64,000 nt of DNA from Escherichia coli O157:H7 (GCF_013167455.1 NZ_CP038328.1); one strand, 5' to 3'; shown: positions 2,067 to 2,932, counted from the stretch's first letter. Notes: a model not told the origin generated them from the sequence alone. Made by a program: numbers and translations.

Positions 2067-2855
2067 TTACCCCCTGAAGCCTGGCGGGATCGCACTGTCC
2101 GGCAACGAGACGGTGTTAACCTGTCGGAGCAACGTCTCAGGCCGAACACCTTTCGGCGCGAACAGGCCCTGGTATTCATTGGCGATGCTGTTTCGAATCA
2201 CCAGCTCAGGTGTAAAACCCTGCTGACGGAATTTTTCCAGTTCCCGTATCGCCCCGTTAGCGCCCTGCTCCGTTCGAATCGGTTTTCGCAATGCCTGTCT
2301 GAACCGGACCCACTCATGCCAGAGTGTTTCCGGCAACCAATCGGGCAGCTCAATAGCCTCCGGCTCGAATTTTTTAGACGCTCGTTTTTGGCGAGGGGGA
2401 TTTAGGGGGAGATCAGTATTTAGATCTTCCTCTTCCTCTTCCTCTGGTAACGCTTTTTGATCCGTTTGTGTAACGCCGGCAGCGTTACCTTTTCGTTTCA
2501 GTTCACGTATTTTTGTAACTCGCTCGTTTGTAACCGCCCGTTTTTTAGAGCTTTTTCCGTTATGGCGTTCAAAGTTAGGTAGAGAAAGCCCAACGTCATT
2601 TTCGACCAGCCATCCAACCTGAATTAACGCATCAGCAAAACCAGCCATAAAAGAGATGCGATCTATTGCACTTTTTGTAACGCCGCGAGCGTTACAATCT
2701 GCATTACCGTCTATCATTTGTTGATCCGCCCATGCCCAGAAGCGAATAACCTTCCCTAATGCGGCATCTGGATCAATATTCAGAATCTCAGCAAGCCTGA
2801 ATATTTCCGGCTTATCCGGCGTAATAACCTCGAGCTTTATCCAGTTTGAAGCCAT
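2067..2855 (-). CDS. ydaU: prophage replication-initiation-like protein (O-gene position), contains poly-Glu tract
   Basis: 262-aa ORF between ydaT-like and DnaC-like genes; EEEEEE encoded by TCC/TCT repeats at 2424-2447. Confidence 0.6.
   Translation of the reverse strand: MASNWIKLEVITPDKPEIFRLAEILNIDPDAALGKVIRFWAWADQQMIDGNADCNARGVTKSAIDRISFMAGFADALIQVGWLVENDVGLSLPNFERHNGKSSKKRAVTNERVTKIRELKRKGNAAGVTQTDQKALPEEEEEEDLNTDLPLNPPRQKRASKKFEPEAIELPDWLPETLWHEWVRFRQALRKPIRTEQGANGAIRELEKFRQQGFTPELVIRNSIANEYQGLFAPKGVRPETLLRQVNTVSLPDSAIPPGFRG
2469..2488. repeat. palindrome GTAACGC-N5-GCGTTAC, copy 1 of 3
   Basis: read directly; inside ydaU-like gene. Confidence 0.8.
2677..2696. repeat. palindrome TGTAACGC-N5-GCGTTACA, copy 2 of 3
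   Basis: read directly; inside ydaU-like gene. Confidence 0.8.
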
Positions 2856-2867
2856 TTGTTTTCACCT

Positions 2868-2888
2868 TGTAACGCTCGCAGCGTTACA
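2868..2888. repeat. palindrome TGTAACGC-N5-GCGTTACA, copy 3 of 3
   Basis: read directly; intergenic between ydaT-like stop and ydaU-like start. Confidence 0.8.
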
Positions 2889-2932
2889 TTTAACTGATAC
2901 CGAACAAAACAATCCGGCACGATTAATTTCAA

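What the first reader, a model, noticed from the sequence alone, without database searches (positions are those of the whole stretch)
2440..2890. Three spaced copies of the palindrome TGTAACGC-N5-GCGTTACA in and upstream of the ydaU-like replication gene
Near-identical palindromes with 8-bp arms occur at 2469-2488, 2677-2696 and 2868-2888, spaced about 200 bp apart. Two lie inside the O-position gene and one in the ydaT-ydaU intergenic region. A GGTAACGC half-site also occurs at 2447-2454 and TTTGTAAC motifs near 2512-2535. Lambdoid origins lie inside the O gene and are built from repeated initiator sites, so these are candidates for the prophage origin or for a regulator operator set.
Basis: seen in the sequence. 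Interest (0 to 1): 0.45.

Follow-up and report, generated by a model that had tools for sequence, protein, structure and literature searches.

The report
Prophage replication origin inside initiator gene
Three copies of one 21-bp palindrome mark what is most likely the replication origin of this Rac-like prophage, written into and just ahead of the gene for the protein predicted to bind it, an arrangement like phage lambda's but built on an unnamed and very large initiator family.

Summary
TGTAACGC-N5-GCGTTACA occurs three times (2469-2489, 2676-2696, 2868-2888) against 0.02 expected by chance, and nowhere else in the 64 kb.

It is a DNA-level element tied to the N-terminal domain of the gene at 2067-2855.
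- All 80 close relatives and all 10 distant, protein-retrieved relatives keep sites 2 and 3. The core GTAAC/GTTAC does not change and the spacers vary freely.
- Arm codons are frozen at synonymous positions.
- Prophages with a 92-94% identical YdaT but another initiator N-domain, including K-12 Rac, have no palindrome.
- Distant relatives without YdaT still have it.
- YdaT's measured box (TTGATT-N6-AATCAA) is different, and it sits at 3345-3362.

The gene is not a YdaU/DUF1376 protein. It combines a predicted winged-helix N-domain, a disordered linker and a DnaT-like C-domain; only the C-domain is shared with K-12 YdaU.

Family-wide, the linker site is followed by an extra CGTTAC half-site and a polypurine run of at least 14 nt (median 23). 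That run translates as EEEEEE or as EKRREE, so the DNA rather than the peptide is what is conserved.

Best reading: these are initiator-binding sites of an origin embedded in the initiator gene, analogous to lambda ori. The upstream site is confined to the enterobacterial branch. Binding and origin activity are inferred, not shown. I rate it a new member of a known kind, of moderate interest.

The parts
2868..2888 (.). Site 1: exact palindrome TGTAACGC-TCGCA-GCGTTACA in the ydaT-initiator spacer, ending 12 nt before the ATG and abutting the Shine-Dalgarno AAGGTG
   Evidence: Present 33-45 nt before the ATG in all 9 enterobacterial relatives examined, even where other small genes separate ydaT from the initiator. 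Present in only 2 of 68 loci of the wider family.
2676..2696 (.). Site 2: exact palindrome, in frame at codons 54-60 (CNARGVT), in a low-confidence loop of the predicted winged-helix domain
   Evidence: Arms invariant in 81 close sequences. N55 always AAC and V59 always GTT in 10 diverged genes. At the equivalent position in 53 of 68 wider-family loci.
2469..2489 (.). Site 3: palindrome with one outermost mismatch (minus strand GGTAACGC-TGCCG-GCGTTACA), in frame at codons 123-129 (GNAAGVT), at the start of the disordered linker
   Evidence: N124 always AAC and V128 always GTT. The spacer changes even non-synonymously among close relatives. A site in this region in 66 of 68 wider-family loci, often 2-3 in tandem 23-24 or 35 bp apart.
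2446..2453 (-). Isolated half-site GCGTTACC (minus strand), a direct repeat of the right arm of site 3, 23 bp downstream of it
   Evidence: (G/C/A)(C/A)GTTACC kept in all 10 protein-retrieved relatives. Leu136 is always TTA and Pro137 always CCA, even in GC-rich relatives. The distance from the previous GTTAC is 11-12, 23 or 35 bp family-wide.
2436..2459 (-). Codon-frozen DNA block CAA AAA GCG TTA CCA GAG GAA GAG (codons 133-140)
   Evidence: 6 of 9 conserved degenerate codons in the codon 133-142 stretch use a single codon in all sequences, against 1 of 61 elsewhere (Fisher p = 4e-6).
2425..2445 (-). 21-nt polypurine tract AGAGGAAGAGGAAGAGGAAGA (read as EEEEEE), followed by a moderately AT-rich stretch; candidate unwinding element
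   Evidence: one of only two purine/pyrimidine runs of 18 nt or more in 64 kb. A run of at least 14 nt (median 23) starts 1-2 nt after the GTTAC(C) half-site in 10/10 protein-retrieved and 57/67 DNA-retrieved loci. It translates as EEEEEE in enterics and as EKRREE/REEKRR elsewhere.
2067..2855 (-). Initiator gene (262 aa): N-terminal winged-helix domain (codons 1-122, 2490-2855), disordered linker (about codons 123-165), C-terminal DnaT-like three-helix domain
1314..2060 (-). DnaC-like helicase loader (ydaV), the next gene in the replication module
   Evidence: NF009043 E = 1e-153; DnaC equivalog E = 3e-91; phrog_50.
2933..3355 (-). YdaT (CII-like regulator), context only: not the binder of the palindromes
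   Evidence: 94% identical to K-12 Rac YdaT. Its published box is at 3345-3362 over its own ATG (PMC11879457).

Best explanation
The palindromes are binding sites on double-stranded DNA for the initiator encoded at 2067-2855. Its N-terminal winged-helix domain probably binds as a dimer, with each subunit reading one GTAACG(C) arm.

Site 3, the CGTTAC half-site 23 bp downstream and the adjoining 21-nt polypurine tract form the core of the prophage's replication origin. This core lies in the part of the gene that encodes the flexible linker, as lambda ori lies inside gene O. Initiator bound there would open the polypurine/AT-rich stretch. Its DnaT-like C-terminal domain would then bring in host DnaB through the adjacent DnaC-like loader.

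Site 2, about 200 bp upstream and conserved across the family, would be an auxiliary site of the same complex, acting by looping or wrapping. Site 1, just before the ribosome-binding site, is an addition of the enterobacterial branch. It either extends that complex or lets the initiator damp read-through into its own gene.

What is shown: the sites exist, are under selection as DNA, and are inherited with the N-terminal domain. What is inferred: who binds them, the dimer, origin firing, unwinding at the polypurine tract, and the roles of sites 1 and 2.
For: 1. Non-random and local: 3 matches against 0.02 expected.

2. Conservation pattern of a protein-binding site. In 80 close relatives all three sites persist. 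Only 5 of 48 arm positions are polymorphic, against 10 of 15 spacer positions. In 10 protein-retrieved relatives down to about 42% identity (Salmonella, Citrobacter, Yersinia, Klebsiella, Serratia, Enterobacter and GC-rich metagenomic phages), sites 2 and 3 are kept with unrelated spacers.

3. Selection on DNA rather than protein. Of 77 conserved degenerate codons, only 11 use one codon throughout. Four are the Asn and Val codons of the arms and six lie in the half-site/polypurine block (p = 1e-4 and 4e-6). Leu136 is the rare TTA even in GC-rich relatives. Site 1 is non-coding. Sites 2 and 3 fall in a loop that tolerates an 11-residue insertion and in the disordered linker.

4. Linkage to the N-domain. 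K-12 Rac shares YdaT (94%), YdaV and the initiator's C-terminal domain (about 90%) but has a DUF1376 N-domain and no palindrome. Rac-SA53 and pPE4 behave the same way. L095 and L096 have the N-domain and palindromes but no YdaT.

5. DNA-first test. Of 120 IMG/VR stretches holding GTAACGC-N5-GCGTTAC, 80 have it in a gene of this N-domain family, at two stereotyped positions.

6. Origin-like anatomy across the family: 1-3 palindromes, a half-site at 11-12, 23 or 35 bp, then a polypurine run of at least 14 nt (median 23) read in two frames. This parallels lambda's four inverted-repeat iterons followed by a purine-rich AT tract inside O (PMC7466680).

7. The protein fits the role: winged-helix fold, DnaT-like C-domain, remote fold relatives annotated replisome organizer, DUF1376 or primosomal protein, and a DnaC-like loader next door.
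Against: There is no binding, footprint, replication or unwinding data for any member of this family. The literature searches found none.

The window has single sites about 200 bp apart, not the tandem array typical of proven phage and plasmid origins.

The sequence after the polypurine tract is only mildly AT-rich (0.54-0.57 against 0.48-0.51 for the gene).

Linkage to the N-domain is what an origin predicts, but pure autoregulatory operators would show the same linkage.

The DNA-first sample was selected for one exact site, so its frequencies are biased upward.
Confidence: 0.6

Rival explanations
1. Autoregulatory operators only. The initiator binds the three sites to repress or block transcription (or translation) of its own operon, and the true origin lies elsewhere.
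For: Site 1 sits immediately upstream of the ribosome-binding site. Linkage to the N-domain is equally expected for self-operators. The sites are dispersed rather than arrayed.
Against: No sigma-70-like promoter lies near any site. The most widely conserved sites are the intragenic ones, while site 1 is missing from 66 of 68 wider-family loci. An operator model does not explain the family-wide half-site plus polypurine tract, which is kept as DNA in two reading frames, nor the tandem arrays 23-24 bp apart in the linker of many relatives.
Confidence: 0.15
2. Sites for a host DNA-binding protein that is shared across Proteobacteria and recruited by this phage module.
For: The core motif is the same in phages of very different hosts and GC contents, which a conserved host factor could explain.
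Against: I know of no E. coli regulator with a GTAACG-N7-CGTTAC site (from memory, not tested). Outside this locus the octamer is at chance level in the 64 kb. The motif disappears when only the initiator N-domain is exchanged in an otherwise near-identical module in the same host species. The N-domain is itself highly conserved, with 14 invariant residues, which matches an unchanging site.
Confidence: 0.07
3. Hairpins in the mRNA or in single-stranded DNA: 8-bp stems with 5-nt loops acting in translation control, RNA processing or priming.
For: Each site can form a stable stem-loop, and two of three local folds are more stable than shuffles (z = -2.9 and -2.8). Site 1 lies next to the Shine-Dalgarno sequence.
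Against: The arm sequence is conserved, not merely the pairing. Among 108 distinct sites, complementarity at the variable positions is no higher than expected from independent columns (positions 8/14: 83 observed, 77.7 expected; 9/13: 54 observed, 54.7 expected). Arm changes are uncompensated (C-A, A-G and A-A oppositions). Conserved isolated half-sites in direct repeat cannot pair as hairpins. There is no Rfam match. The site 1 fold is not exceptional (z = -0.9).
Confidence: 0.07
4. Operators of the neighbouring regulator YdaT (CII-like).
For: ydaT lies directly upstream in the window and in all enterobacterial relatives. YdaT binds inverted repeats (PMC9986795).
Against: Footprinted YdaT boxes are ATGATT/TTGATT-N6-AATCAA (PMC11879457, PMC9986795). 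The window's YdaT is 94% identical to the protein studied and has that box at 3345-3362. Three prophages with 92-94% identical YdaT but other initiators have no palindrome. L095 and L096 have palindromes without YdaT.
Confidence: 0.03
5. By-product of a repeated, functionally important peptide (xNAxxVT), with no function as DNA.
For: The peptide motif occurs at about residue 50 and/or 113-142 in 125 of 150 family representatives.
Against: The same 21-mer occurs in non-coding DNA at site 1. The arm codons are frozen at synonymous positions. Both peptides lie in low-confidence or disordered regions that accept insertions. The residues encoded by the spacer, and the peptide encoded by the polypurine tract, change freely, even in charge.
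Confidence: 0.03

Closest known systems
Phage lambda ori with O protein (lambdoid origin inside the initiator gene)
   Same: The origin lies within the initiator's own gene, in the region encoding the link between the DNA-binding N-terminal part and the C-terminal part that recruits the helicase loader. Each site is an inverted repeat of about 19-21 bp with a short central spacer, bound in lambda by an O dimer. The sites are followed by a strand-asymmetric purine-rich tract (PMC7466680). The N-terminal half and the origin are inherited as one exchangeable unit.
   Different: No sequence homology to lambda O (hhalign probability 0.4%; no PF04492 hit). Lambda has four tandem iterons 20-24 bp apart; the window has three single sites 192 and 207 bp apart, one of them outside the gene. 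The tract is a GA-repeat at 50% GC rather than an A-rich stretch. The partner is a DnaC-like loader with a DnaT-like domain rather than lambda P.
K-12 Rac YdaU (DUF1376) and oriJ
   Same: Same position in the same kind of prophage, between ydaT and ydaV. The C-terminal DnaT-like domain is about 90% identical. Fold-level resemblance to DUF1376 proteins (Foldseek E about 3e-4).
   Different: The N-terminal halves are unrelated and there is no Pfam DUF1376 match. K-12 ydaU has no GTAACG-N7-CGTTAC site. It carries its own repeat, TTGAACATCTGY, five times. What is published on oriJ therefore does not transfer.
Replisome organizers of Gram-positive phages (for example SPP1 G38P with oriL inside gene 38)
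   Same: A two-domain origin-binding protein whose binding sites lie within its own gene next to an AT-rich region (established knowledge; PMC5737612 for oriL). BFVD fold matches are annotated 'replisome organizer'.
   Different: The similarity is at fold level only. SPP1 sites are direct repeats, and the helicase-loading partners differ.
E. coli DnaT (primosomal protein I), C-terminal domain
   Same: Residues about 165-262 match DnaT residues 92-179 (2ru8_A E = 2.8e-5; 9zbt_D E = 9.5e-5). The model shows a three-helix domain.
   Different: DnaT has no sequence-specific origin-binding domain and acts in PriA-dependent restart, not at a defined origin.

Membership tests
Lambda-type origin (ori inside the initiator gene) | Initiator-binding repeats located inside the initiator gene, in the inter-domain region | tested here: met
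   Site 3 at codons 123-129, at the start of the low-confidence linker between the winged-helix domain and the DnaT-like domain. Lambda's iterons read from NC_001416 for comparison.
Lambda-type origin (ori inside the initiator gene) | Tandem array of four or more iterons about 20-24 bp apart | tested here: not met
   The window has one palindrome plus one half-site in the linker; the other two palindromes are 207 and 399 bp away. Some relatives do carry 2-3 tandem sites 23-24 bp apart.
Lambda-type origin (ori inside the initiator gene) | Adjacent AT-rich, strand-asymmetric unwinding region | tested here: inconclusive
   A 21-nt polypurine tract lies directly after the half-site and is conserved family-wide. 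It is 50% GC, and the following 30 bp are only mildly AT-rich. Unwinding was not tested.
Lambda-type origin (ori inside the initiator gene) | Initiator homologous to lambda O (Pfam Phage_rep_O) | tested here: not met
   No Pfam hit at E <= 10. hhalign of the family profile against lambda O gives probability 0.4%.
Lambda-type origin (ori inside the initiator gene) | Initiator binds the repeats; the fragment supports replication | not testable with these tools
   Needs EMSA or footprinting and a plasmid replication assay.
YdaU family (DUF1376) | Match to the DUF1376 N-terminal domain | tested here: not met
   No Pfam or NCBIfam match. BLASTP to K-12 YdaU aligns convincingly only the C-terminal domain. 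RefSeq names the window's gene 'hypothetical protein' but K-12's 'YdaU family protein'.
YdaT (CII-like) operator | Inverted repeat TTGATT/ATGATT-N6-AATCAA | tested here: not met
   The palindrome has a different sequence and spacing. The true box is at 3345-3362 (PMC11879457, PMC9986795).
Structured RNA element or intrinsic terminator | Pairing maintained by compensatory change; a U-run after the stem for a terminator | tested here: not met
   No excess complementarity at variable positions. No Rfam hit. No T-run after any site on the sense strand. The only terminator-like call is antisense, at site 3.
Winged-helix DNA-binding domain | Helix-turn-helix followed by a beta-hairpin wing | tested here: met
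DnaT C-terminal domain | Sequence match to DnaT residues about 90-179 | tested here: met
   2ru8_A E = 2.8e-5 and 9zbt_D E = 9.5e-5.

The most novel reading that the evidence does not exclude
An unnamed family of phage initiators, with 6,732 clusters at 50% identity, has written its own origin into its own reading frame. The initiator's binding sites dictate the conserved peptides xNAxxVT in a surface loop and in the linker. The unwinding tract is kept as polypurine DNA while being translated in different frames as an acidic (EEEEEE) or a mixed-charge (EKRREE) peptide. Conserved 'protein motifs' of a very large family would then be shadows of a cis-acting DNA element. In the enterobacterial branch the origin has also spread into three sites about 200 bp apart, reaching the 5' untranslated region, which would couple initiator synthesis to origin occupancy.
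Probability: 0.45. Interest if true: 0.6.

Novelty: new member of a known kind. Interest (0 to 1): 0.5.

Why it matters
If confirmed, this gives a precise, testable origin and binding-site definition (nGTAACGC-N5-GCGTTACA, plus a CGTTAC half-site and a polypurine tract) for a replication module present in about one in eight complete E. coli genomes (678 of 5,426 carry most of it). The same definition would apply to a family of thousands of phage initiator clusters that public databases still label 'hypothetical protein'.

It would allow origins of many temperate phages and prophages to be annotated from sequence alone. It also explains the mosaic exchange between Rac-type prophages: N-domain plus origin move as one cassette, with the junction close to the polypurine tract.

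It offers a clean case in which a cis-acting DNA element, rather than protein function, fixes amino-acid motifs. Mechanistically it is not surprising, because it follows the lambda paradigm.

Tried and rejected
**Searches that found nothing**
- Pfam and NCBIfam on the initiator.
- PDB sequence search with the family profile. Only the C-terminal domain alone matched DnaT.
- Foldseek against PDB: nothing significant.
- Rfam on 2000-3800.
- Promoter scan: no promoter near any site. The one terminator-like call is site 3 read on the antisense strand.
- Pfam on the 376-aa variant with the linker insertion.

**Literature**
- Searches for oriJ, ydaU and the motif itself gave no description of this element.
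- The oriJ work concerns K-12 Rac, whose initiator has a different N-domain, so I dropped it as a comparison.

**Hypotheses rejected or set aside**
- YdaT as the binder: rejected.
- Homology to lambda O: rejected.
- The GATC cluster at 2411-2462 as an origin hallmark: three GATC in 52 bp has p about 0.001 on its own, but the window holds six such clusters, and the GATCs are not conserved outside the enterics. Not used as evidence.
- The TTTGTAAC/GTTACA pair at 2514-2534: not conserved as DNA.
- A search for altered-specificity relatives, meaning a different palindrome paired with a diverged N-domain: only inner-position variants such as GTAACGG were found. No co-variation of protein and site could be demonstrated.

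Full report
**1. The observation**

The pattern TGTAACGC-N5-GCGTTACA, allowing two mismatches, matches exactly three places in the 64-kb window: 2469-2489 (one mismatch at the outermost base), 2676-2696 and 2868-2888. Dinucleotide shuffles predict 0.02 matches. The half-site octamer occurs seven times in the window. Five copies are here, and the other two fit the chance expectation of 1.9.

**2. Gene context**

The genes run on the minus strand. In order:
- a Cro-like gene, 3352-3594;
- YdaT, a CII-like regulator, 2933-3355;
- a 262-codon gene at 2067-2855, called a replication initiation protein by PHROGs (phrog_2509, E = 4e-87);
- a DnaC-like loader, 1314-2060.

In gene orientation the sites lie at -33 (site 1), +159 (site 2, codons 54-60, CNARGVT) and +366 (site 3, codons 123-129, GNAAGVT). 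Site 1 ends 12 nt before the ATG and abuts the Shine-Dalgarno sequence.

**3. The gene is not a YdaU-family protein**

It matches no Pfam or NCBIfam model. RefSeq and other sources call it 'hypothetical protein'.

An AlphaFold2 model built on 89 homologues gives three parts:
- a confident N-terminal domain with the helix-turn-helix plus beta-wing layout of a winged helix;
- a disordered linker, about residues 123-165;
- a three-helix C-terminal domain.

Against K-12 Rac YdaU, the C-terminal stretch (residues 165-262) is about 90% identical and the N-terminal halves are unrelated. The window therefore holds a domain-swapped counterpart of ydaU.

The N-domain family is very large: 6,732 clusters at 50% identity reach E <= 0.001.

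**4. Conservation pattern**

In 80 close relatives from IMG/VR (94-100% protein identity) all three sites are present. Across 59 distinct sequences, 5 of 48 arm positions are polymorphic against 10 of 15 spacer positions. The background is 15.6%. At site 3 the spacer changes alter the encoded residues.

I retrieved ten more distant relatives by protein: Salmonella, Citrobacter, Yersinia, Klebsiella, Serratia, Enterobacter and three metagenomic phages, two of them GC-rich. They fall to about 42% identity. All keep sites 2 and 3 at equivalent positions with unrelated spacers. All eight enterobacterial-type relatives also keep site 1, 33-45 nt before the ATG, and in one it is duplicated. Where other small genes separate ydaT from the initiator, site 1 stays with the initiator's start.

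**5. Selection acts on the DNA**

In the codon alignment of ten diverged genes, 77 columns hold a conserved amino acid with synonymous choices. Only 11 of them use one codon in every sequence:
- N55 (AAC), V59 (GTT), N124 (AAC) and V128 (GTT), which are the arm codons;
- Q133, L136 (TTA), P137, E138, E139 and E140, a block downstream of site 3;
- one unrelated Asp.

Fisher tests against the other 61 columns give p = 1e-4 for the arms and p = 4e-6 for the block. TTA for leucine is kept even in the GC-rich relatives. Site 2 falls in a low-confidence loop that accepts an 11-residue insertion in two relatives, and site 3 falls in the disordered linker. Site 1 is not coding at all.

**6. Duplex binding site rather than hairpin**

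The arm sequence is conserved, not merely its ability to pair. Observed arm changes are uncompensated. Among 108 distinct sites from the wider family, complementarity at the variable positions matches what independent columns would give: positions 8/14, 83 observed against 77.7 expected; positions 9/13, 54 against 54.7. A conserved isolated half-site in direct repeat cannot be part of a hairpin. No Rfam family matches.

**7. Which protein the sites belong to**

YdaT is excluded as far as computation allows.
- Its footprinted box in Rac and CP-933P is ATGATT/TTGATT-N6-AATCAA (PMC11879457, PMC9986795).
- The window's YdaT is 94% identical to the Rac protein.
- That box lies over its own start codon at 3345-3362.
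- Rac-SA53, pPE4 and K-12 Rac have YdaT 92-94% identical, other initiator N-domains, and no site within two mismatches of the core.
- Conversely, L095 and L096 carry the N-domain and the palindromes without any YdaT gene.

K-12 Rac also shares the loader and the initiator's C-terminal domain. The only element that co-varies with the palindromes is therefore the N-terminal domain.

In a DNA-first scan of IMG/VR for GTAACGC-N5-GCGTTAC, 80 of the first 120 stretches had the match inside a gene of this N-domain family, at about +148 or +337 to +424. Nearly every stretch with two or more nearby matches was such a gene. Most of the other 40 look like chance singles. A few show clustered half-sites and may be related origins.

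**8. Family-wide anatomy**

In 68 distinct DNA-retrieved loci, 51 have sites in both regions, 15 only in the linker, and 2 also upstream. Many have two or three palindromes in the linker, 23-24 or 35 bp apart.

The last palindrome is followed at 11-12, 23 or 35 bp by a further (C)GTTACC half-site. One or two bases later a polypurine run of at least 14 nt (median 23) begins. This holds in 10 of 10 protein-retrieved and 57 of 67 DNA-retrieved loci, and it is almost always the only such run in the 900 nt examined. The run is (GAAGAG)n, read as EEEEEE, in the enterobacterial branch. Elsewhere it is (AGAAG)n, read as EKRREE or REEKRR. The peptide's charge is not conserved while the purine strand bias is.

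In the window the half-site is at 2446-2453. The tract is at 2425-2445, one of only two purine or pyrimidine runs of 18 nt or more in the 64 kb.

**9. Comparison with lambda**

I read lambda's origin from NC_001416. Four annotated 18-bp inverted-repeat iterons lie 20-24 bp apart inside gene O, followed by a purine-rich AT tract. O binds them as a dimer. Two iterons plus the AT-rich tract suffice for unwinding (PMC7466680).

The present element has the same logic and the same placement. The differences are:
- an unrelated initiator (hhalign probability 0.4%);
- a different site sequence;
- dispersed single sites in the window;
- a GA-repeat instead of an A-rich tract.

The other initiator types at this position carry their own internal repeats. 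K-12 ydaU has five TTGAACATCTGY copies. Rac-SA53 has two 34-nt repeats and pPE4 has CCTTAGGC-type repeats. This fits the general rule that each N-domain travels with its own origin.

**10. Verdict**

The palindromes are most likely initiator-binding sites of an origin embedded in the initiator gene. Site 3, the half-site and the tract form the core. Site 2 is a conserved auxiliary site. Site 1 is an addition of the enterobacterial branch that may also feed back on initiator expression.

Existence, DNA-level selection and linkage to the N-domain are shown. Binding, dimer stoichiometry, unwinding and origin firing are inferred.

I put 0.6 on the full statement and about 0.75 on the narrower claim that the initiator's N-domain binds these sites. 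The main rival, at 0.15, is a purely autoregulatory role.

I found no published description of this element. The search covers open-access papers only.

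Noticed in passing
window 3345-3362: The published YdaT box (TTGATT-N6-AATCAA, one mismatch) lies over the ydaT start codon, as in K-12 Rac. A weaker copy with two mismatches lies at 2919-2936 over the ydaT stop, 31 bp before site 1.
   Followed up: partly
L091:2501-3631 (protein P0040, 376 aa; common in E. coli): A frequent variant of the initiator carries an insertion of about 114 residues in the linker, shortly after the polypurine tract. The insert has no Pfam match. Its sequence (..GRIDIVV..ELD..) looked nuclease-like to me, but I did not test that.
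   Followed up: partly
L094:1982-2282 (K-12 Rac ydaU): K-12 ydaU, whose N-domain is DUF1376, contains five copies of TTGAACATCTGY inside the gene. They may be the iterons of oriJ.
   Followed up: no
L092:2803-2871 and L093:2245-2296, 2509-2535: The unrelated initiator genes of Rac-SA53 and of phage pPE4 each carry their own internal repeats: two 34-nt units with internal dyad symmetry, and CCTTAGGC(T)TATCC-type repeats.
   Followed up: no
window 2411-2462: Three GATC sites occur within 52 bp around the half-site and polypurine tract. This is suggestive of Dam/SeqA control, but the window holds six such clusters and the GATCs are not conserved outside the enterics.
   Followed up: yes
window 2470-2498, plus strand: Read on the antisense strand, site 3 followed by CTTTTCGTTT scores as an intrinsic-terminator-like site. 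It could stop antisense transcription into the origin, or it could be chance.
   Followed up: no
sites 1-3 in L001-L080: The 5-bp spacers of the palindromes are far more polymorphic among close relatives (10 of 15 positions) than the rest of the region (15.6%). This may reflect absence of any constraint, or a mutational hotspot at the centre of a palindrome.
   Followed up: partly
L133:5976, L134:528 and L134:8712 (one 43-kb IMG/VR contig); also L184:38, L208:3842: Some viral contigs have further GTAACGC-N5-GCGTTAC sites or runs of CGTTAC half-sites 11-12 bp apart outside any recognised family gene. They may be second origins or origins of more diverged initiators.
   Followed up: no
PP818812.1 (L093): The record named Actinobacillus phage vB_Apl-pPE4 has a Rac-type early region with cro-ydaT DNA 95% identical to this E. 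coli window (YdaT protein 91%). That is unexpected for a Pasteurellaceae phage and suggests an E. coli origin for the sequence.
   Followed up: no
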